In this document: piece after piece, positions 12,792 to 26,797 of the stretch
How positions within the stretch are numbered: position 1 is the stretch's first letter
Layout: each line of letters opens with the position of its first letter
NCBI GenBank assembly: GCA_938010745.1
Contig: CALLVF010000007.1
Span: 1 to 27,061 of the forward strand
Source: an uncultured Patescibacteria group bacterium
Lineage (GTDB): Bacteria > Patescibacteriota > Microgenomatia > UBA1406 > GWC2-37-13
Direction of reading: 5' to 3'
DNA length: 27,061 nt
The notes under the pieces: generated by a model
What the model saw: only the letters and a program-made list of their open reading frames with translations
Told to the model about the DNA's origin: nothing
Database searches by the model: none
Program-made: the position numbers and the translations under genes

Positions 12792-15479
12792 ATGGCTAAA
12801 GAAAATTTAATTAATGCCTGGTATCAAGAAAAAAATGATCGTTTTGATCAAGAAAAATTAAAAACATTAAAAGAATTAATTGATAATGATCAGAAAATAC
12901 TGGCTGTTTTTAATCTTTTTCCTCAGTTTGACCAAGAATTTTCTTTTTTATATTTTGTCAATCCTGACATTGGCGGCTCGCTGGGTTCTGGCTTAAGAGT
13001 AGTTTCTCTAAGAAACGTGATTGATCCAAATTTAAATATTATTATTCCCTCTTGTAACTTTGCAGGAATTTTTATTCCAAAAACAGATGACCTAAAGGAA
13101 TCATTAAATGAAGCAAAAAGAATAAAACAAACCCTCATTCGCAAAAGGACCAAATTTTATCCTAACATCCCGGAAGAATCTTTTAGGATTGCAATCGCAA
13201 CTGACAAACAAGTAGAATATTGGAAGAAATTAGGTTTTTTTGATGAAATTAAACCAAACCTAGAAAACGCTCCATCACTTTTATCAATAATTAATGCTCT
13301 TTATAATCCGAAAACTGGTTTTGGTCTTGATAATTTAGGAGTCAGGTTCCGAACCAAAGGAATAACTGTTCCTCAAATTGATGTTTCATTTTACACTTTG
13401 GATGAAAATAAAATTGCTCAACCTTGTGCTTTAACTCTTTGGGGCTGGGATAAAACTTTAGAAAATCTTGTCCCTTATGAAAATGTTACCGCCTTAGTAA
13501 GTGTCCCCCGTGAACTTCCTCTTTCTCAAAGAAAAGCAATTCAACGAGAAACACAAAAACTTCTTGTATATTGGCTAAAAAACCCAGAAGCTAATGTACT
13601 TACAGTTGATAAATCTCTTTTAAATTTTTGGCAAGAAAAAGGAGCTTTAGTTAGTGAAGAAACAAAAAGACTATTAAATTTAATTCCTTTAAGAAAAAGA
13701 GTTGATTATGGAGGCATAGCCGAAAAACCAAAATCAGCAAAATTGGTTCTTTTTGAACCAAAAACAATGGTTGGCGGCCCACAGCTTTTAGTTGATGTTA
13801 GTCTAGAAAATATTAGCTCATCAGTAATTCTTGACTGGGGGCTTCCTTATATTAATGAAGCATTAATGAGCTTGGGAAATCGACCTTCTTTCATTAAAGG
13901 ACTTAATCCTTTTTTAGAAGAGGGAATGCTACCTGAGATAAGAAGACTTTACCGCCTTGATCTTCTAACTCAATCATTAACTCCCCAAATGATTAATACC
14001 GTTTTAACTGGTAATTACTCTTTCATTTTAGGTGAAATTTACCACCGTAAAGGTTGGCAATACTTGGCAGATTTAATAAATGAAAAATTTCCCGGTTATT
14101 TTACTCTTCAGCAATTAAATGATCTAAAGACTCATTTGGAAAAGATCGAAGATGAATATTACTCTGACAAGAGAATTTTTGAGGAAGTATTAATTAGTCA
14201 TGGTCATACTGACCATTATGGTGGATTAGTATTTGTAAGAGATGAAATTACAGCAGGGATGTCACCGGAAACTTATGCTTTCCTAAACGCGCGCTTTCAT
14301 CAACCTGGCACTTGGCTTGATGAACACATAATAAGAAAAAAAAGAGATAATGAAAAAAAACCATATTCTCTTGCTAAAAGACCTATTCATCTTTACTTTC
14401 CCAATGCTTCAGAAAGAATCGCTCCCCATATATCTGTAACTGCATTTCCTTTAAATCATAGCATTATTGGTGCCCTAGGATTTGTTATTGGCATCACTGA
14501 TAAAAAAGGAAATCCCTTAACTCATGTTGCTTATTTAACTGATTTTCGCGAAGGTCCCCTAACAACAACCACCATTGAAGCGATTAAATCAGTAGCTCCT
14601 GAGGTATTAATTATAGAAGGGACAAATATTGCCGAGGAAAAAACCTCAAGTATTGTAACGGAAGAAATGGTTAAATTAAATATCGAAAAGTTTTTAAAAC
14701 AAGCTGATCATACAGGTGGATTTTTTATTATCCAAATACCACCCAATCACCTAGAAAGACTGACTAATATTGTGGAAATTGCCGGAAAAAGAAAGGTAGC
14801 TATTCCTTTACCAATTGCCCAAATCCTTCATGAATTTTATATTCTCAATGAAAATTTACCGCCAGAGCAAAGAATTAATCTTCCTAAAATTGGCACTGAT
14901 TTGGTGGTTTATTATCCTCAAAAGATAACCTATGACCCTTGGGAGCGACAATTAATTGATCAATATCAAGCAACAGATATTTTTTCCTTAACCTCTGATC
15001 CCGGCAACTACATTATTATTGTCTCCCACTATATCCTTTTGGAGAATCTTTTTGCCGGACAATTAGTAAAAAGTAAAAATTCACAAGGATACATAATCAA
15101 CGCTACCTACTGGCCATATAGCGATCAGACTAAAGCAACCTTAATGTCCAATTACCGTTTTGCTAAAGCTAATAACCTTGCTTTTTTAAGTGATTTTGAC
15201 CTCTCAAGAAATACTATTCAAAGACCAAGGGAAAAAATTATCGGTGTTCACGCCTCCGGCCACGCCAGTGATGAGTATTTACTGTCGGTTATTGATCAAA
15301 TTGCTCAAGATGGGAGTTTAAAAACTGTTTTACCTATTCATACTCAATTTAGAGGCAAATATGCAAAGAGGATAATTGAAAAGTTAAGAAAAAGAGGTGG
15401 AGGAATTTACCCAGAGCTTGATAACATAAAAATAATTGGAAAAGTAAAGAAGCGAGTAGCAGAAATTCCTATATTCTAA
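12792..15479 (+). CDS. MBL-fold beta-CASP (RNase J-like) nuclease with ~315 aa unknown N-terminal extension
   Basis: GG...ILDWG, ISHGHTDHYGG (HxHxDH, 14199-14216), NHSI, YLTDFR, LIIEGTN, HASGH (15249), PIHT (15339). Confidence 0.85.
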   Translation: MAKENLINAWYQEKNDRFDQEKLKTLKELIDNDQKILAVFNLFPQFDQEFSFLYFVNPDIGGSLGSGLRVVSLRNVIDPNLNIIIPSCNFAGIFIPKTDDLKESLNEAKRIKQTLIRKRTKFYPNIPEESFRIAIATDKQVEYWKKLGFFDEIKPNLENAPSLLSIINALYNPKTGFGLDNLGVRFRTKGITVPQIDVSFYTLDENKIAQPCALTLWGWDKTLENLVPYENVTALVSVPRELPLSQRKAIQRETQKLLVYWLKNPEANVLTVDKSLLNFWQEKGALVSEETKRLLNLIPLRKRVDYGGIAEKPKSAKLVLFEPKTMVGGPQLLVDVSLENISSSVILDWGLPYINEALMSLGNRPSFIKGLNPFLEEGMLPEIRRLYRLDLLTQSLTPQMINTVLTGNYSFILGEIYHRKGWQYLADLINEKFPGYFTLQQLNDLKTHLEKIEDEYYSDKRIFEEVLISHGHTDHYGGLVFVRDEITAGMSPETYAFLNARFHQPGTWLDEHIIRKKRDNEKKPYSLAKRPIHLYFPNASERIAPHISVTAFPLNHSIIGALGFVIGITDKKGNPLTHVAYLTDFREGPLTTTTIEAIKSVAPEVLIIEGTNIAEEKTSSIVTEEMVKLNIEKFLKQADHTGGFFIIQIPPNHLERLTNIVEIAGKRKVAIPLPIAQILHEFYILNENLPPEQRINLPKIGTDLVVYYPQKITYDPWERQLIDQYQATDIFSLTSDPGNYIIIVSHYILLENLFAGQLVKSKNSQGYIINATYWPYSDQTKATLMSNYRFAKANNLAFLSDFDLSRNTIQRPREKIIGVHASGHASDEYLLSVIDQIAQDGSLKTVLPIHTQFRGKYAKRIIEKLRKRGGGIYPELDNIKIIGKVKKRVAEIPIF

Positions 15480-16179: not shown

Positions 16180-17961
16180 TTAAGAAACAGCCCTTATTGA
16201 TTGATAAGTTACTCTTGTTAAATAAAATAAATTTGAAAAAGGTACTCCAATATAATCTTTACCTATCTCTTGCTCCTTAGTATGATCAATAACTAAAACT
16301 TGCTCACCGGCTTTATAATGAAAATATTCTGATCCTTTTTTTCTTCTATTAAAAACAACATATACAACCCTTGCTTTAGCTTCTGGATTATTTTCATTCA
16401 ATTCTATAGCAATACTATTAACATTTTGACCACCTAAAAGAGTCATTCCACCTTCAACTAATAACACCCCACCATCAGGCTTTAAAAAATCTAAAGCATT
16501 TCTTATCATCTGCCATCTTTTATTAAGATCGCCCACGCAAGCAACTGTGCCTCTTAAAGTCACTAAATCACTTTTTTTAATATCTAACATCTTAGTTAAT
16601 TCTTTTTCCGTTAAATCAGTTTGACCTAAAAAAACACCTTTTCCTCTAAGATCGTTTCTCCATTGAATTATTTCTTGTAATTCTTTTTCTGCTAAAAATT
16701 CATTATCAGGATAGTTAGAATATTTTTCGTGGGAAAAAACACCATCTTTTCCTCTTTTAAATCTTTCAATAGAATAATTCTTCGGATCATCAGATAAAGA
16801 TTTAGGATCTAAAATATCAACAATATGATTTACTTCTACTAATATACCATTTTCTTCTAATCTTTTAATAAGATCATAAAAAGAAGCTCCTAAAGCTCCA
16901 AAACCTAAATCTGATACTGTTAATTTTTGTCTCCCTTTAAAGTGATCTAATAATGCCCTTTCATCATATCTGCCAGAAATTTCTCTTACTTTATTACTTG
17001 GTGCCAGGAAATCAAAAAAATCACTATATTCTAAAGCCTTAAGGAGAAAAGATTTCCATTCTTCGACAGTAAATTTTTCAATATTTCCAGCATCTATTAA
17101 ACCGTGATTTGTCAAAATCATAAGAATATGATCAAAAAGATACAAAACTCCATTATGTTCTCCTCTTAACATTTTCTCAACAACAACCATCAGACCTTGA
17201 AAATATCTTGAACCAAACTCTCTTATTTTATTATTTTGATCTTGATTCTCATAATTCTCATATTGTATTTCTTTATAACTTTTTAACAAAGATTTAAAGG
17301 CTTCAGTTAATTTTTGAGGAATTAATCTTCCTGATTCATTAAAAGATTTACATGCTTGATTATGATTAAATAATAAACCAAAAAAATAAATTGATTCTAA
17401 TTCATTTAAACTATTATCTTTCTTTTGGTGATGAAAATTATCTACATAATTACTAAATTCAAAAAATCCAGGTTTTGCTTGAGTAAAATTCATAGAACCA
17501 AATTCAAGATTAGTCGAGACTAATTGAGATGCTAAAATTAGAGTTGCTAATTTATCTTTATCCCCTGCATAAGTTTGATTAATTTCTTGAAGTAAACTAG
17601 CTATTAACAATGAAGCTATTTTATCTTCAAATTCATAAGATCTAACATACTGTCCTTTTTCATCAAATTGTCTTACTTCATTAGGTAAAATATTATAATA
17701 AAATGAAAAAGGAAAATTGTAAAGACCTTCTATATGAGGATAAATATACGATTCCATTCCACCTAATAAATATTCAAAATAAGAAGGAATTGAGCCATTA
17801 TCTCTTTTTAAAATCAAATAAATAAAACGTCTTCTAAAATCATTAGTTAATACAAGATTATAAAAATCATTGTTACATTTATAAATATCTCCAAAAAATC
17901 CTTTAAATTCACATAAAAATTTTTTTATCACTGTTTTTGTTGATTTTTCAATTTCTTTCAT
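16180..17961 (-). CDS. Hypothetical protein with C-terminal class I SAM-dependent methyltransferase (CheR-like) domain
   Basis: VSDLGFG motif I (~residue 351), IVDI, QTDL, SDLVTLRGTV, ALDFLKPDGGVLLV. Confidence 0.7.
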   Translation of the reverse strand: MKEIEKSTKTVIKKFLCEFKGFFGDIYKCNNDFYNLVLTNDFRRRFIYLILKRDNGSIPSYFEYLLGGMESYIYPHIEGLYNFPFSFYYNILPNEVRQFDEKGQYVRSYEFEDKIASLLIASLLQEINQTYAGDKDKLATLILASQLVSTNLEFGSMNFTQAKPGFFEFSNYVDNFHHQKKDNSLNELESIYFFGLLFNHNQACKSFNESGRLIPQKLTEAFKSLLKSYKEIQYENYENQDQNNKIREFGSRYFQGLMVVVEKMLRGEHNGVLYLFDHILMILTNHGLIDAGNIEKFTVEEWKSFLLKALEYSDFFDFLAPSNKVREISGRYDERALLDHFKGRQKLTVSDLGFGALGASFYDLIKRLEENGILVEVNHIVDILDPKSLSDDPKNYSIERFKRGKDGVFSHEKYSNYPDNEFLAEKELQEIIQWRNDLRGKGVFLGQTDLTEKELTKMLDIKKSDLVTLRGTVACVGDLNKRWQMIRNALDFLKPDGGVLLVEGGMTLLGGQNVNSIAIELNENNPEAKARVVYVVFNRRKKGSEYFHYKAGEQVLVIDHTKEQEIGKDYIGVPFSNLFYLTRVTYQSIRAVS

Positions 17962-18643: not shown

Positions 18644-19012
18644 ATGAAATACCAAACTGCCCCCGAGATAAAAAAGCAGATAAAACTATTAGTAAAACAA
18701 CTTAAACTTAACCATATTAAAATCAACAATATCCATTGTATCCGCTCATTTGATGCCAAAATGCGAGCAATTGCTCGTATATGGGGAATGAGCAAACTTT
18801 TCAAAGAAGTTGCTGGTCTTGAGCCTCATTATATCATCGAAGTCAACGCTCATCGCTTTGATAAATTATCCGATCGTGAAAAAATTAAAACATTAATCCA
18901 TGAACTATTGCATATCCCAAAAACTTTCTCAGGTGCTCTTCTTTCTCACAAAGGAAGATATCATCAAATAAATGATAAAATAACGGAAAAGTTGTTATTA
19001 AATTTAAAATGA
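18644..19012 (+). CDS. Small putative zinc metallopeptidase (COG4900-like)
   Basis: ARIWG, YIIEV, HELLHIP (HExxH), GAL..H. Confidence 0.75.
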   Translation: MKYQTAPEIKKQIKLLVKQLKLNHIKINNIHCIRSFDAKMRAIARIWGMSKLFKEVAGLEPHYIIEVNAHRFDKLSDREKIKTLIHELLHIPKTFSGALLSHKGRYHQINDKITEKLLLNLK

Positions 19013-23185: not shown

Positions 23186-23277
23186 GCAAATTAATCTAAT
23201 TGCCTGCCTTCAAAACCCTTATAACCTAAAATCAAAAAAATAAATAATAAATCAGCTATCACAATAATCAATCACTA

Positions 23278-23350
23278 GTTTTCAATTTTCAAATTTGAAT
23301 TTTGAATTTTTAATTCTTAATTTTGAATTTTGTATTTTGAATTTGAAATC
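23278..23350. repeat. Tandem heptamer tract (tttgaat-like x8)
   Basis: tttgaat tttgaat ttttaat tcttaat tttgaat tttgtat tttgaat ttgaaat. Confidence 0.8.
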
Positions 23351-23613
23351 TGCATTTAAAATAAACCCACAAGATATTTTCTATCTTACCTGCAACCGCT
23401 GTCAAGATAGAATTTTTATTAATATTTACATCTTCAAATCAATATTTTCTATATTGACTGCTATCGCCTAACAGATAGAATTTTACTTTTTTTCAATCCC
23501 CGAGACTTCTTTTATAAAAAAATCAACTCCAGCCGATAAAACCTTAACATAAGAAGTGTTTTTAATGATTGAATAACAAGAATCAATTTAAATTTAAAAA
23601 AAACCCACACGGA

Positions 23614-23913
23614 TTAAAAATGTTCGTTAACACTTCCATCATTGACAATTAAAACATTTTTTTTGGATAAGTAAGAACCAACTCTGTTAAAAAAGGGAAA
23701 AGTTGGCTCTGTAACTTCTTTACCTACTATCTAATTTGCATCTGGATTTGATAAGATAGAAGCTTTATAAAAATAAAGCCCTAACTCTTCACCCATCTTT
23801 AAAACAACCAAAAAAAGCTATAATTCAGGTATGACATCGTTTAGTATTTCTCTGAACAGGCGCATTTTAATCAATAATATTGTCCCCCCGCTATCTTTAA
23901 TCAAAGTCTTTTC
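23614..23913 (-). pseudogene. Possible decayed gene remnant of unknown function
   Basis: One 100-codon frame with two internal TAG stops (23818-23820, 23731-23733) and protein-like composition (...SKKNVLIVNDGSV). Confidence 0.3.
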
Positions 23914-24362
23914 CTAATTATAATTTAAACTTTAATTTGATCTATTAGGTCTTTATAATCGATATTTTCCCTATTTGAATTATTTTGATTGTTTTTTTTC
24001 TCTAAGTAAAATTTTTTATATTATATGCTCCTAAATTAAGTAAAAAATTAATTAAGGAACCTTTCTTGTTTTATTTTAGGAAGTTATTTTTGCTTTTTTC
24101 TCGATTATTAATTTTGGTTGAAGCAAAGAAAAATTATAACTGATTTTTATTTTTAGCAACTAATTTTGTCTATTAGTTTAGTAATCTTCCATATTCAAAA
24201 AATTTTTCATCTTCTTTAAATTTTTTTCTATTGATAAAATATTTAAAATTTAAAAATAAATCAAGAAAATTCTCTCTCTGCTATGCGCTTTAATAAGTTA
24301 AATTTTTCCCTTTAAATAAACTAGAAAACATTCGCAAAGAACTAATCAATAATTTTTCCAAC

Positions 24363-24452
24363 TGGCGGAGGAGGTGGGATTCGAACCCACGCGAGCCTTG
24401 CGGCTCAAGGGTTTAGCAAACCCTCGCAATGGACCAGCTATGCGACTCCTCC
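24363..24452 (-). tRNA. tRNA-Ser (GCT), class II with long variable arm, CCA encoded
   Basis: GGAGGAG/CTCCTCC acceptor, AGGGT-TTGCTAA-ACCCT, variable arm GAGCC-GCAA-GGCTC, GTGGG-TTCGAAT-CCCAC, GCCA end. Confidence 0.97.
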
Positions 24453-24769: not shown

Positions 24770-26797
24770 ATGGAAAAAGAAAGAAATCCAGAAACACCAC
24801 AACAGAAAGTTGTTCGGTCTTTGGTTGTCTCATTAGCAAAACCTGATGAAATTTACAATGCCTTTCTACAGAGTAAAGATCACAATCCAACTGTTTTAAG
24901 ATTTTACATTGCTCAAAAAGGTAATGAAGGGAATAGAAGATACACTTTATTTAGCGGCAAAATTAATCCAGATGAAAATTTCTCAGAGGCAATCGAGCGG
25001 AAAATAGATGAGGAATTAGGAGTAAAATTTTTAGGCATTCCTTGGCAAACTATCATCGGTCAATGGCATTATTTATCACCTTCAGGAAAAAGGGAAGTTT
25101 TTTTAACTTATAATCCAATTTATCCACAAAATACAATTTCACTAGGTGACCCAAAAATTATCAGCGCAGAAGTTTTGGATTATGATAAGTTGCAAGAGTT
25201 AATTGAAAAAGGTCAACTAGGGGAAATACCGTTAGAAGGACACTTAGCTATGAATACTCAAGATGAAATTTTCATCTCACAAGAGGAAGCGATAAAAAGA
25301 AATCAGTCAATGATAAAACTTTTATCATGGATGAGCCATATTGAAGTTTATCTTCAAAAAAGATTTGAGCAAATAATCTTAAGAAATAATAATCCTATTT
25401 CTTTTAAGGAATTTAGAGGTGAATATGAAAAAATATTGGCCCAATTTATGACTAATGGAATAAAAGTGGCAATTAAAGAAAAAATTTCTAAAGAAAATGA
25501 AAAACGGGATTCCTTGATTGAAGCCTTAGATAGTGGCTATTTAGGAAAAGATATTCTTTATTTTTTGCCTGATATTGCCGAACATGGAATAGATTGGCCA
25601 GGATTAGAAAAAACAACTGAGGGAGTAAAAAAATTTATTGGTTTTTTAAAAGATGTTTTTGTTAATTTTTTACAAGAAAGAGGAGTAACTGAAGAAGAGT
25701 ATAGAAATCTTATGACAGATCCTCAAAAAACTTTAGAAGAAAAGCTAGCTTTAATTAATTCTCTCAATATTTTTTTTAGAGAAAAATTAAAAGAAATATT
25801 TAGTGTAAATGATAATCAATTAAATACGACTAATATCTTTATCCAAAATTTCCTTCGTGATCTTTCCAATGAAATGAAAGTAGCAGATCCCAATCTAACT
25901 GCCGGTCTATATCAAGACTTTACATTAACAAATGAAGTTGCCAACGCCAATTTTGGCTATTTATTAAGTCTATTTTTAGGTTATGATACCAAAATAAACA
26001 ATGAAGAAGCTGAGAGGCTAATTCGTTTTGAAGCTGGTCGGCAATTACTTTTGCTATTTAAAGCCATGGCTGGGATAAAATATTATCTAAATGAATTAGA
26101 TAATGTAAATAATGGAAAGTTACAAAATGCTGTTAATAATTTTTTTGGACCAATAGTTGGAGAAGAAATCGTTACTTTGGATAAACATACTAAAATGAGA
26201 ATAAGAATAAGGCAAAGAAACGGTAAAAAATTTATTGTTGATGAAAAACCAACTAAATCTTTTACCTCCTTTTTGCGAAAAAGCTTAGAAGAAGAATTCA
26301 ATAAAATCTGTGATTTTTACTCTTTAAGTATAGTCTTTTTGGACGGCATAAGTGGTCAAGAAGAAGTAGAATTATTTATAAATCAATTTAACGAATTTCT
26401 CAAAAACCAGTTTCCCGATTCAGAAACAGTAATAAAAGATATGCGCACCTACGCCAGTGAAGATTACTTTTCACAAAAAAATAAAGAACAAAAAATCTCT
26501 GGTAAAAGATCAGGATCTGAAAGCAGCAGAATGGTAAGAACCAAATTGCTTCTTTCATTAAAAACAGGAAATACTGAAGAATTATTGGAGTTAACTATCT
26601 ATCCGTTTTTTTCAATTAAAGATAACTTTTATTGGGGTTGGTTGGAAAAAATTGCAGATGACAGAAACTATCTCGTTAGACGACTTGTAGCTGGAAAAAA
26701 AGGCATTCCTTCCCTTTATGATTTGCTTTTTCCTCCTAAATTATATCCCGATCATTATCTTCATAAGTTAAACTCCGATTATCATAATCACTATTAA
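24770..26797 (+). CDS. Nudix-domain protein with helical middle and putative RelA/SpoT-like nucleotidyltransferase C-terminal domain
   Basis: Nudix box GKINPDENFSEAIERKIDEELG (24956-25021); C-terminal KSFTSFLRK...ICDFYSLSIV...LELTIY. ORF reality is high; the C-terminal assignment is tentative. Confidence 0.65.
   Translation: MEKERNPETPQQKVVRSLVVSLAKPDEIYNAFLQSKDHNPTVLRFYIAQKGNEGNRRYTLFSGKINPDENFSEAIERKIDEELGVKFLGIPWQTIIGQWHYLSPSGKREVFLTYNPIYPQNTISLGDPKIISAEVLDYDKLQELIEKGQLGEIPLEGHLAMNTQDEIFISQEEAIKRNQSMIKLLSWMSHIEVYLQKRFEQIILRNNNPISFKEFRGEYEKILAQFMTNGIKVAIKEKISKENEKRDSLIEALDSGYLGKDILYFLPDIAEHGIDWPGLEKTTEGVKKFIGFLKDVFVNFLQERGVTEEEYRNLMTDPQKTLEEKLALINSLNIFFREKLKEIFSVNDNQLNTTNIFIQNFLRDLSNEMKVADPNLTAGLYQDFTLTNEVANANFGYLLSLFLGYDTKINNEEAERLIRFEAGRQLLLLFKAMAGIKYYLNELDNVNNGKLQNAVNNFFGPIVGEEIVTLDKHTKMRIRIRQRNGKKFIVDEKPTKSFTSFLRKSLEEEFNKICDFYSLSIVFLDGISGQEEVELFINQFNEFLKNQFPDSETVIKDMRTYASEDYFSQKNKEQKISGKRSGSESSRMVRTKLLLSLKTGNTEELLELTIYPFFSIKDNFYWGWLEKIADDRNYLVRRLVAGKKGIPSLYDLLFPPKLYPDHYLHKLNSDYHNHY

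What the first reader, a model, noticed from the sequence alone, without database searches (positions are those of the whole stretch)
24770..26797. Nudix domain fused to a RelA/SpoT-like nucleotidyltransferase: candidate single-protein alarmone or nucleotide-signal switch
Seen: an N-terminal Nudix box, ~350 aa of helical sequence, then K496-S-x2-S-x3-K, D515-x4-I-V and E607-L-T-I. Known: RelA/SpoT synthetase domains have R.K..S...K (Syn1), D..G.R (Syn2) and E.Q.RT (Syn4) in this order and with similar spacing, and some Nudix enzymes hydrolyse (p)ppGpp. Inference: a divergent synthetase-fold enzyme coupled to a Nudix hydrolase or sensor rather than an HD domain. Syn1 R, Syn2 R, the Syn3 YxxxH and Syn4 Q are replaced, so the product or acceptor may not be ppGpp. 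ToxSAS enzymes make (pp)pApp or pyrophosphorylate tRNA ends, and this gene is divergent from tRNA-Ser. I do not recognise this architecture.
Basis: partly seen in the sequence, partly recalled or inferred. Interest (0 to 1): 0.8.

Follow-up and report, generated by a model that had tools for sequence, protein, structure and literature searches.

The report
Nudix fused to divergent RelA/SpoT-like domain
This 675-residue protein of a tiny CPR (Microgenomates-type) bacterium joins a Nudix hydrolase domain to a very divergent but structurally clear RelA/SpoT-type "alarmone synthetase" domain. Databases label it only "NUDIX hydrolase", so it may make or modify a nucleotide signal other than classical ppGpp.

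Summary
Window 24770-26797 (+) is one intact 675-aa ORF with an N-terminal Nudix domain (Pfam above cut-off; fold Z about 10). A helical region of about 240 aa follows, then a C-terminal alpha/beta domain.

No sequence library recognises the C-terminal domain (Pfam, NCBIfam, PADLOC, PHROGs, PDB profile search). Its AlphaFold model (pLDDT 87.5) does find a fold. The eight best of 48,161 PDB chains are all RelA/SpoT synthetase domains: Rel, SAS1, SAS2, RelP, an exported SAS, SpoT and CapRel (Z 7.2-9.6). Generic Pol-beta nucleotidyltransferases score Z 6.5 or less.

An orphan protein from a related genome bridges the family to canonical RelA_SpoT motifs.

The donor NTP/Mg site therefore appears kept. 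The acceptor (Syn3) loop is replaced by an invariant basic GKRxGS loop.

The family is narrow: 10 of 61 order-level relatives and 0 of 300 other genomes of the phylum. It has no conserved neighbours, and its lineage mostly lacks canonical RelA_SpoT.

Function is inferred, not shown. In this genome the Nudix box reads RK instead of RE. I class it as a new variant of a known kind.

The parts
24770..26797 (+). Whole CDS, 675 aa plus stop (P0001)
   Evidence: ORF list and translation. 43 full-length-type homologues at E down to 1e-272. The full-length AF2 model has pLDDT 88.7 and pTM 0.90.
24791..25249 (+). Nudix domain, residues about 8-160
   Evidence: Pfam PF00293: E 8.8e-6, 26.2 bits against a cut-off of 21.1. 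Foldseek and VIA-align give Nudix hydrolases at Z about 10 over model residues about 8-190.
24956..25024 (+). Nudix box, residues 63-85. It reads G-x5-E-x7-R-K-I-x-E-E-x-G-V, with K78 where the consensus has E.
   Evidence: Regex and codon reading: CGG AAA for R77 K78. The family consensus is REIxEE; position 78 is E in 68/88 and K in 6/88.
25262..25981 (+). Helical middle region, residues about 165-404; no known family
   Evidence: DSSP helices at 171-402 in the model. There is no Pfam or Atlas feature hit. hhalign against the Rel HD domain gives P 0.36. The region is conserved in homologues, e.g. Q382 82/88 and E389 83/88.
25982..26704 (+). RelA/SpoT-like synthetase-fold domain, residues 405-645
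   Evidence: Separate AF2 model, pLDDT 87.5. In VIA-align wide, the top 8 hits are all RSH synthetase domains, Z 9.6-7.2. The Foldseek PDB top 3 are SAS2 and Rel. Supporting results: AFDB and Atlas, Atlas language-model features, and the bridge alignment.
26246..26281 (+). Syn1-like motif: [KR]493-P-x-K496-x3-S500-x2-R503-K504 (strand end plus helix 498-505)
   Evidence: Conservation: position 493 is K in 68 and R in 20 of 88, K496 87/88, S500 87/88, R503 87/88, K504 83/88. hhalign places it on Rel's K..YS.Y.K and on P0122's RRKDSISAYLK.
26312..26338 (+). Syn2-like strand starting at invariant D515 (residues 515-523). The canonical G and R of D..G.R are absent (S518; S or N at 520).
   Evidence: D515 88/88; position 520 is S 39, N 39, G 8. 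It aligns to the D of DHIGIR in the bridge protein P0122.
26501..26545 (+). Family-specific basic Gly-rich loop G578-K-R580-x-G582-S583 ... R590-x-K592. It lies where RSH enzymes carry the Syn3 acceptor loop.
   Evidence: G582 and S583 88/88, R580 85/88, G578 83/88, R590 86/88, K592 82/88. Residues about 565-585 have lower pLDDT, i.e. a likely flexible loop. Segment 562-592 has pI about 10.
26579..26605 (+). Syn4-like strand, residues 604-612, E607-x3-Y611-P612 (canonical E.Q.RT)
   Evidence: E607 87/88, Y611 84/88, P612 88/88. It aligns to AELQLHT of P0122. The distant Nudix-bearing member L052 reads FEIQILP.
26636..26683 (+). Conserved helix after Syn4, residues 623-638 (G-W-x-E-K-x2-D-D-x2-Y-x2-R-R)
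   Evidence: Y634 and R638 88/88, D630 86/88, G623 83/88. The model has a helix at 624-640.
26702..26794 (+). C-terminal tail, residues 645-675, with the conserved motif PS-x-Y-D/E-L-L-F-P-P-x-L-Y-P
   Evidence: P655 83/88, Y659 82/88, S648 78/88. It aligns with VNLIYPNDIYG of P0122.

Best explanation
The gene encodes a three-part enzyme of a narrow CPR (Microgenomates-type) lineage: an N-terminal Nudix pyrophosphohydrolase domain, a helical connector of unknown family, and a C-terminal domain that is a very divergent member of the RelA/SpoT-homologue (RSH) synthetase fold.

Shown:
- Both folds are present.
- The residues that in RSH enzymes hold the donor NTP's phosphates are kept: the Syn1 K/S/K positions, here [KR]493, K496, S500, R503 and K504.
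- The residues at the positions of the two Mg-binding carboxylates are kept (D515, E607).
- The Syn3 acceptor loop and the Syn2 Arg that contacts the donor adenine are replaced. An invariant basic GKRxGS...R.K loop sits in the Syn3 position.

Inferred:
- The C-terminal domain still transfers a (pyro)phosphoryl group from an NTP, but onto an acceptor other than the GDP/GTP read by canonical Syn3.
- The fused Nudix domain acts on the same nucleotide pool, either degrading or trimming the product or supplying the acceptor. This would parallel the HD hydrolase of long Rel enzymes or the Nudix enzymes that cut (p)ppGpp.
- In this genome the Nudix box has K for the first catalytic Glu (R77-K78), so its hydrolase half may be weakened or reduced to binding.
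For: Fold:
- VIA-align of the 405-675 model against 48,161 PDB chains gives B. subtilis Rel Z 9.6, SAS2 9.3, RelP 8.8, SAS1 8.6, exported SAS 8.5, Rel 7.5, SpoT 7.4 and CapRel 7.2. Other NTases score 6.5 or less.
- The Foldseek PDB top 3 are SAS2 (two chains) and Rel.
- AFDB clusters and Atlas shape searches return RelA/SpoT families after the protein's own family.
- Atlas language-model features: 66 of 100 named hits fall in the PF04607 set.

Active-site conservation: D515 88/88, E607 87/88, K496 87/88, S500 87/88, R503 87/88, K504 83/88, position 493 always K or R, G582/S583 88/88.

Sequence links:
- hhalign of the family profile against CPR Rel synthetase domains puts Syn1 and Syn2 in register (P 0.009).
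- The orphan P0122 has a sub-threshold PF04607 hit (E 2.3e-4) and canonical DHIGIR and ELQLHT motifs. It aligns collinearly with the family over 220 columns (score 27.1, against 13.6 +/- 2.5 and a maximum of 22.6 in 60 shuffles; global P 6e-5).

Nudix: Pfam and fold. The box is canonical in most members.

Architecture: it is conserved in distant members of 617-860 aa, several with a recognisable Nudix domain.

Lineage: canonical PF04607 was found in 4 of 61 order-level relatives against 206 of 301 across the phylum, and not in the window's own genome, which is 90.5% complete.
Against: - No activity has been measured.
- No sequence model recognises the domain: PF04607 does not hit P0001 or any of 35 members at E up to 1, and PDB profile searches return nothing.
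- The direct profile-profile score to Rel is weak (P 0.009-0.095).
- Z of 9-10 is only a little above the tool's stated background of 7-8 for best hits. The argument rests on the run of eight RSH hits and the motif register, not on Z alone.
- Residue-level superposition on an ATP-bound RSH structure could not be done.
- Syn2 G/R, Syn3, and Syn4 Q/R/T are not kept, so the chemistry may differ.
- The family is in only 10 of 61 relatives, so it is not a general replacement for Rel.
- K78 in the Nudix box of this genome argues against a fully active hydrolase here.
Confidence: 0.55

Rival explanations
1. It is a fused, self-restrained toxSAS-like effector in the manner of CapRel. The RSH-like domain would pyrophosphorylate tRNA or other RNA 3' ends, or drain ATP, when triggered. 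The Nudix-plus-helical part would act in cis as inhibitor, sensor or reverser, serving phage defence or conflict.
For: - CapRel (Z 7.2), Tas1 (Z 6.5) and FaRel (Z 4.9) are among the structural matches.
- The Syn3 guanine-reading loop is replaced by a basic loop, and the core domain is basic (pI about 9.0), as would suit an RNA acceptor.
- Distribution is patchy and narrow: 10/61 relatives and 0/300 elsewhere in the phylum.
- Some loci lie beside DpnI, SNase, HIT, Nudix and a Y1 transposase.
- tRNA genes lie nearby in some loci.
Against: - Housekeeping Rel and SAS structures score higher than the toxSAS ones.
- There is no PADLOC hit beyond a weak Nudix-box match.
- There is no conserved neighbour or antitoxin-like partner.
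- All three domains are about equally conserved, with no sign of a fast-evolving sensor.
- Loose synteny with aspS-like tRNA synthetase and Peptidase_S11 genes is shared by members only about 33% identical in this domain, which suggests vertical descent.
- tRNA adjacency is not conserved.
Confidence: 0.2
2. The C-terminal domain uses the same fold for a different reaction: nucleotidyl transfer (MenT, CD-NTase or adenylyltransferase-like) or simple phosphoryl transfer. It would not be RSH-type pyrophosphoryl transfer.
For: - Pol-beta-superfamily NTases also match: NF90 Z 6.5, TdT 6.2, FAM46 6.1, MenT1 5.8, CD-NTases and OAS1 about 5.6.
- The adenine-contacting Syn2 Arg and Syn4 Q/R/T are replaced.
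- Many extra invariant charged residues (R580, R590, K592, D630, R638) imply a rebuilt active site.
Against: - RSH domains outrank all other NTases as a block of eight.
- The motif order fits RSH: a K..S...K helix before a single-Asp strand, then a Glu strand.
- The Pol-beta signature hG[GS]...[DE]x[DE] is absent. Residues 516-517 are hydrophobic or aromatic, not acidic.
Confidence: 0.13
3. The protein is in effect just a Nudix hydrolase. The RSH-like domain would be a non-catalytic ligand-binding or scaffolding module that regulates it.
For: - Public records name family members only as NUDIX hydrolases.
- Several canonical RSH motif positions are lost.
- Inactive RSH synthetase domains exist in nature; E. 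coli SpoT/RelA pseudo-domains are established knowledge.
Against: - The residues at the metal-binding and triphosphate-binding positions are exactly the ones kept invariant over the whole family (88/88, 87/88), which is not expected of a dead domain.
- In this genome it is the Nudix box, not the RSH-like site, that carries a damaging-looking substitution.
- Some relatives carry the domain without a recognisable Nudix: L053 at 965 aa, L051 at 703 aa and P0122.
Confidence: 0.1

Closest known systems
Small alarmone synthetases (RelQ/SAS1, RelP/SAS2; PDB 5DEC, 6FGK, 6EWZ) and the synthetase domain of long Rel/SpoT (8ACU, 6YXA, 7QPS)
   Same: They share the alpha/beta synthetase fold, including the two long N-terminal helices (Z 8.6-9.6, 138-163 aligned residues). 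The order of elements is the same: basic strand end, K..S...K helix, Asp strand, helix, strands, Glu strand, helix. The Lys/Ser/Lys, Asp and Glu positions are conserved.
   Different: There is no PF04607 sequence match. The Syn2 G/R, the Syn3 KDYI..PK.NGY.S.H acceptor loop and Syn4 Q/R/T are replaced. There is an insert of about 30 residues with an invariant GKRxGS loop and a conserved C-terminal tail. It is fused to Nudix plus a helical domain instead of HD/TGS/ACT or standing alone.
toxSAS and fused RSH effectors (CapRel 7ZTB, Tas1 6OX6, FaRel 8PU1)
   Same: The fold is the same (Z 7.2, 6.5, 4.9). Canonical guanine recognition is lost. In CapRel there is a single polypeptide with a regulatory domain in cis.
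   Different: The structural scores are lower than for housekeeping RSH. There is no antitoxin gene or conserved partner, no defence-library hit, and the partner domain (Nudix) is different.
Nudix hydrolases acting on alarmones (B. subtilis NahA; T. thermophilus Ndx8; E. coli MutT/NudG over-expression)
   Same: It has the Nudix fold and box. A Nudix enzyme working on the product of an RSH synthetase has precedent in papers PMC7584652, PMC7593582 and PMC3153485 (ref. 90); I saw these as titles, abstracts and passages.
   Different: Those enzymes are stand-alone proteins, whereas here the Nudix is covalently fused to the synthetase-like domain. The substrate is unknown, and this genome's copy has RK for RE.
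Orphan CPR protein P0122 (L007:589-2028, a genome of the same order) and AFDB entries K2F942 and A0A1F5JMH9
   Same: P0122 shares the family's RFEAGR-like helix, K..S...K, a GxSKGSSGK loop, an E strand, Y..KRL and a YP...Y tail, collinear over 220 columns. The AFDB entries are structural matches at E 1e-4 to 4e-6, better than canonical RSH entries.
   Different: P0122 has no recognisable Nudix. It keeps canonical D..G.R and E.Q.HT and reaches PF04607 at E 2.3e-4. It therefore sits between canonical RSH and this family.

Membership tests
RSH superfamily synthetase domain (RelA_SpoT, PF04607) | RSH synthetase alpha/beta fold | tested here: met
   VIA-align ranks 1-8 are all RSH synthetase domains, Z 9.6-7.2. 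The Foldseek PDB top 3 are SAS2 and Rel. Atlas and AFDB shape hits agree.
RSH superfamily synthetase domain (RelA_SpoT, PF04607) | Significant match to the PF04607 profile | tested here: not met
   There is no PF04607 hit for P0001 at E up to 10, or for any of 35 members at E up to 1. Only the bridge protein P0122 reaches E 2.3e-4, at 21.8 bits against a cut-off of 27.
RSH superfamily synthetase domain (RelA_SpoT, PF04607) | Syn1 R.K...S...K (donor phosphate binding) | tested here: met
   K496-x3-S500-x3-K504 is conserved 87, 87 and 83 of 88. The Arg is replaced by an always-basic residue one position further away ([KR]493), and R503 is added. The register is supported by hhalign.
RSH superfamily synthetase domain (RelA_SpoT, PF04607) | Syn2 D..G.R | tested here: not met
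   D515 is invariant (88/88), but G is S/T/A at 518 and R is S/N/G at 520.
RSH superfamily synthetase domain (RelA_SpoT, PF04607) | Syn3 acceptor loop (KDYI..PK.NGY.S.H) | tested here: not met
   It is replaced by G578-K-R-x-G-S...R590-x-K592. hhalign finds no alignment of this part to Rel.
RSH superfamily synthetase domain (RelA_SpoT, PF04607) | Syn4 E.Q.RT | tested here: inconclusive
   E607 is conserved 87/88. Q is variable (V/I/A/T), and RT is replaced by invariant Y611-P612. Distant members read E.Q.LP (L052) and E.Q.HT (P0122).
RSH superfamily synthetase domain (RelA_SpoT, PF04607) | ATP-dependent pyrophosphoryl transfer to a 3'-OH | not testable with these tools
   This needs biochemistry. 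The attempted ligand co-fold was not run by the tool.
Long RSH (Rel/RelA/SpoT) | N-terminal HD hydrolase domain and C-terminal TGS/ACT regulatory domains | tested here: not met
   There are no HD, TGS or ACT Pfam hits. The middle region against the CPR Rel HD alignment gives hhalign P 0.36.
Nudix hydrolase (PF00293) | Profile match above the curated cut-off, and the Nudix fold | tested here: met
   26.2 bits against a cut-off of 21.1. All 35 aligned members hit. Fold Z is about 10.
Nudix hydrolase (PF00293) | Complete Nudix box G-x5-E-x7-R-E-U-x-E-E-x-G-U | tested here: not met
   This protein reads R77-K78-I-D-E81-E82-L-G84-V. The family consensus is complete, with E at position 78 in 68/88. 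The codon could not be checked in an independent sample, because a contig gap at 24962-25021 covers it.
toxSAS toxin-antitoxin modules | Adjacent antitoxin gene or conserved bicistronic partner; recognised by defence libraries | tested here: not met
   Neighbours differ in every locus read. PADLOC gives only a weak Nudix-box match.
   Neither model appears for P0001 at E up to 10, or for seven distant members at E up to 1.

The most novel reading that the evidence does not exclude
In a CPR order that has largely lost the classical Rel enzyme, a Nudix-RSH fusion makes and trims a nucleotide messenger, or an RNA-end modification, that is not (p)ppGpp. It would use a rebuilt acceptor site (the GKRxGS loop), possibly as a composite site shared between the Nudix and synthetase-like domains. 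That would be a previously unseen synthetase-hydrolase pairing for alarmone-type signalling.
Probability: 0.3. Interest if true: 0.8.

Novelty: new variant of a known kind. Interest (0 to 1): 0.62.

Why it matters
RSH enzymes are the core of bacterial stress signalling. Their offshoots (toxSAS, Tas1, CapRel) have repeatedly revealed new chemistry, such as (pp)pApp synthesis and tRNA pyrophosphorylation.

This family extends the superfamily beyond what sequence models detect. Public records see only a Nudix hydrolase. It pairs the synthetase fold with a Nudix domain instead of HD, and it keeps the donor site while rebuilding the acceptor site. It occurs in ultra-small CPR bacteria, most of whose relatives lack a recognisable RelA_SpoT domain.

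If the domain is active, it points to an unknown product or target and gives an entry point to signalling in CPR organisms. The family is also a concrete candidate for a new Pfam/NCBIfam domain model.

Tried and rejected
- Sequence libraries found nothing for residues about 160-675: Pfam, NCBIfam, PADLOC and PHROGs.
- PDB profile searches with A1 and A3 found only Nudix, or nothing.
- A word-indexed search with the C-terminal profile A3 returned only fragments of the family, with no bridge to PF04607.
- The bridge protein P0122 has no homologues in that database, so no intermediate profile could be built.
- Fold searches with the full-length model were swamped by Nudix hits. The separate C-terminal model was needed.
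- Complex prediction with ATP and Mg was not folded by the tool, and gives no evidence either way.
- An HD-like origin for the middle domain is rejected.
- A functional link to tRNA-Ser is rejected as a conserved feature.
- I tried to verify codon 78 (AAA) in an independent sample. The second run's contigs stop at 24961 and resume at 25022, so the codon is not covered.
- Literature searches found no description of a Nudix-RSH fusion. The 2011 RSH survey mentions Nudix only in other contexts, and the 2020 toxSAS survey has no occurrence of 'Nudix'. This is absence from the papers I could search, not proof of novelty.
Full report
**1. What is at the coordinates**

Window 24770-26797 (+) is a single intact ORF of 675 aa (P0001). 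Its start (MEKERNPE...) matches the N-termini of its homologues.

A Nudix box runs from G63 to G84 and V85. In this genome the canonical R-E pair reads R77-K78 (codons CGG AAA).

tRNA-Ser(GCT) lies at 24363-24452 on the minus strand, 317 bases upstream and divergent. The window ends 264 bases after the stop codon, so the downstream neighbour is unknown.

Upstream genes are ordinary metabolism and envelope functions: enolase, ribulose-phosphate epimerase, transketolase and glycosyltransferases.

**2. The N-terminal domain is a real Nudix domain**

- Pfam PF00293 scores 26.2 bits against a cut-off of 21.1, and all 35 aligned homologues hit it.
- The full-length AlphaFold model is confident (pLDDT 88.7, pTM 0.90).
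- Residues about 8-190 match many Nudix hydrolases, by Foldseek (E about 1e-4) and by VIA-align (Z about 10).
- The family consensus has a complete box (GGKIxxxENxxEAIQREIxEExG).
- Position 78 is E in 68 of 88 long homologues. It is K in this protein and five others, and R in a distant clade.

From established knowledge of Nudix enzymes, the glutamates of REUXEE bind the catalytic metals, and in MutT the first one is the general base. K78 may therefore weaken hydrolysis in this copy.

I could not verify the codon in an independent sample. The only other run holding the gene has a contig gap at 24962-25021.

**3. The C-terminal domain has the RelA/SpoT synthetase fold**

No sequence library recognises residues about 160-675. 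I therefore modelled residues 405-675 alone, using 35 homologues (pLDDT 87.5).

VIA-align against one representative of every PDB sequence cluster (48,161 chains) gave these as ranks 1-8:

| Rank | Structure | Z |
|---|---|---|
| 1 | B. subtilis Rel | 9.6 |
| 2 | SAS2 | 9.3 |
| 3 | S. aureus RelP | 8.8 |
| 4 | SAS1 | 8.6 |
| 5 | Exported Streptomyces SAS | 8.5 |
| 6 | Full-length Rel | 7.5 |
| 7 | SpoT | 7.4 |
| 8 | CapRel (tRNA pyrophosphokinase) | 7.2 |

- Tas1, RelA and FaRel appear further down the same list.
- Other Pol-beta-superfamily nucleotidyltransferases (NF90, TdT, FAM46, pol beta, MenT1, CD-NTases, OAS1, cGAS) start at Z 6.5.
- Foldseek against the whole PDB is weak in absolute terms, but its three best hits are SAS2 (E 0.03, two chains) and T. 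thermophilus Rel.
- In AFDB clusters, after the family's own entries (named only 'NUDIX hydrolase' or 'Nudix hydrolase domain-containing protein') come several 'RelA/SpoT domain-containing' and 'GTP pyrophosphokinase' entries.
- The ESM Atlas shape search returns seven RelA_SpoT family sets among ten rows, and one also appears with the full-length model.
- Language-model features point the same way: 66 of 100 named hits fall in the PF04607 set.

A Z of 9-10 alone is only modestly above the tool's stated background. What carries the argument is the unbroken block of RSH hits combined with the motif register in section 4.

**4. The catalytic-looking residues are conserved and in register**

An exhaustive search found 87 relatives. 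They include a distant group of 750-860 aa that matches residues about 245-661. Several of these also begin with a recognisable Nudix domain.

Conservation over 88 long members, down to about 24% identity in this domain:

| Position | Conservation (of 88) |
|---|---|
| 493 | K 68, R 20 |
| K496 | 87 |
| S500 | 87 |
| R503 | 87 |
| K504 | 83 |
| D515 | 88 |
| G578 | 83 |
| R580 | 85 |
| G582, S583 | 88 each |
| R590 | 86 |
| K592 | 82 |
| E607 | 87 |
| Y611 | 84 |
| P612 | 88 |
| D630 | 86 |
| Y634, R638 | 88 each |

- Profile-profile alignment with Rel synthetase domains taken from 25 CPR genomes places K496...K504 on Syn1 and D515 on Syn2. The scores are weak: P 0.095 with the close family and 0.009 with the broad one.
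- A stronger link is an orphan 480-aa protein from a genome of the same order (P0122, L007:589-2028).
  - It has a sub-threshold PF04607 hit (E 2.3e-4).
  - It keeps canonical DHIGIR and ELQLHT motifs.
  - It aligns collinearly with this family over 220 columns. The aligned pairs are RFEAGR with KFEARR, the K..S...K helix, a GxSKGSSGK loop with GKRxGSxGxR, the Glu strand, Y..RRL with Y..KRL, and the YP tail.
  - The score is 27.1, against 13.6 +/- 2.5 (maximum 22.6) for 60 shuffles, and the global P is 6e-5.
- Another distant Nudix-bearing member (L052, 617 aa) reads FEIQILP at Syn4.

From established knowledge of RSH structures (RelSeq, RelQ, RelP), Syn1 Arg/Lys/Lys hold the donor ATP phosphates, and the Syn2 Asp and Syn4 Glu hold Mg. 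The Syn2 Arg contacts the adenine, and Syn3 reads the GDP/GTP acceptor.

In this family the first set is kept. The Syn2 Arg position is S, N or G. Syn3 is replaced by the invariant basic Gly-rich loop. Syn4 RT is Y-P.

**5. The middle region**

Residues about 165-404 are helical and conserved, and they match nothing. They show no likeness to the HD hydrolase domain of CPR Rel proteins (P 0.36).

**6. Distribution and context**

- The window's own genome is 779 kb in 87 contigs and 90.5% complete. It has no PF04607 match.
- Among 61 order-level genomes, 4 have a PF04607 match. Those inspected are SAS-like or divergent (L004-L007), not long Rel. Ten carry this family, eight of them in the window's own taxonomic family.
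- Across the phylum, 206 of 301 sampled genomes have PF04607. None of the 300 genomes other than the window's own carries this family.
- Two genomes have both, so the family is not a strict substitute for canonical RSH.
- Neighbours differ from locus to locus, and no small partner gene recurs.
- Loose synteny with a class-II tRNA synthetase gene and a Peptidase_S11 gene is shared by members only about 33% identical in this domain. This suggests vertical descent.
- tRNA adjacency is not conserved.

**7. Interpretation**

Shown:
- The protein is a Nudix domain, a helical connector and an RSH-fold domain.
- The residues at the NTP-phosphate and Mg positions are under strong constraint.
- The acceptor side is rebuilt.

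Inferred, at about 55%: the C-terminal domain is an active NTP-dependent (pyro)phosphotransferase with a non-canonical acceptor. The Nudix domain works on the same nucleotide pool, as HD does in Rel or as NahA/Ndx8-type Nudix enzymes do on (p)ppGpp.

Rivals:
- A CapRel-like self-restrained effector acting on RNA ends, about 20%. The basic core (pI about 9), the lost guanine loop and the patchy distribution favour it. Against it are the absence of any defence signature or partner and the even conservation of the domains.
- The same fold with other chemistry, about 13%.
- A non-catalytic regulatory module on a Nudix hydrolase, about 10%. The pattern of invariants argues against this.

**8. Comparison and novelty**

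The C-terminal domain belongs structurally to the RSH superfamily. It fails the sequence-profile test and three of the five motif tests. I therefore file it as a divergent new clade rather than a member of PF04607 as currently defined.

I found no description of a Nudix-RSH fusion in the RSH surveys I could search. UniProt/AFDB names see only the Nudix part. I class it as a new variant of a known kind.

**9.

Note e1-5293095, on this same window, groups this gene with two other large stand-alone genes as a possible 'conflict arsenal'. I tested that only for this gene. It has no defence-library hit and no conserved conflict context. The idea survives as a minority rival.

Noticed in passing
window 23186-24362: A 1.18-kb stretch between the transketolase gene and tRNA-Ser has no ORF of 60 aa or more and no Rfam match. 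Its AT-rich part at about 23280-23500 contains short repeat units (tttgaatttt-like). These recur about 22 times across the window's own genome and many times in related genomes at 75-94% identity.
   Followed up: partly
genome level (G000 and 60 order-level relatives): A canonical RelA_SpoT domain (PF04607) was found in only 4 of 61 genomes of this order, and not in the window's genome. It was found in 206 of 301 genomes sampled across the phylum. The order seems largely to lack a classical Rel enzyme.
   Followed up: partly
L007:589-2028 (+), genome G053: This is an orphan 480-aa protein (P0122) with no homologue in the 5.8-billion-protein index. It combines canonical RSH motifs (DHIGIR, ELQLHT; PF04607 E 2.3e-4) with this family's own motifs. 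It looks like an evolutionary intermediate and is worth its own look.
   Followed up: partly
window 12792-15476 (+) and 16183-17961 (-): Two large stand-alone ORFs. One is 895 aa with only a weak Lactamase_B_2 (metallo-hydrolase) hit in its middle. The other is 593 aa with no Pfam hit.
   Followed up: no
window 18644-19009 (+): A 122-aa ORF matches 'Putative phage metallopeptidase' (PF18894, E 2.6e-21). It lies between a phosphoribosyltransferase-like gene and a LytR_cpsA_psr gene.
   Followed up: no
window 24962-25021: In the one other public run that holds this gene at near identity, the assembled contigs break exactly over this 60-base stretch. The stretch includes the Nudix box and codon 78. 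This could reflect low coverage or strain variation at the box.
   Followed up: partly
L053:671-3565 (+) and L051:714-2822 (-): These are distant family members of 965 and 703 aa. They carry the C-terminal RSH-like domain (E 5e-35 and 1.5e-24 to the family profile) without a recognisable Nudix domain. The 965-aa one has a DUF6799 domain instead.
   Followed up: partly
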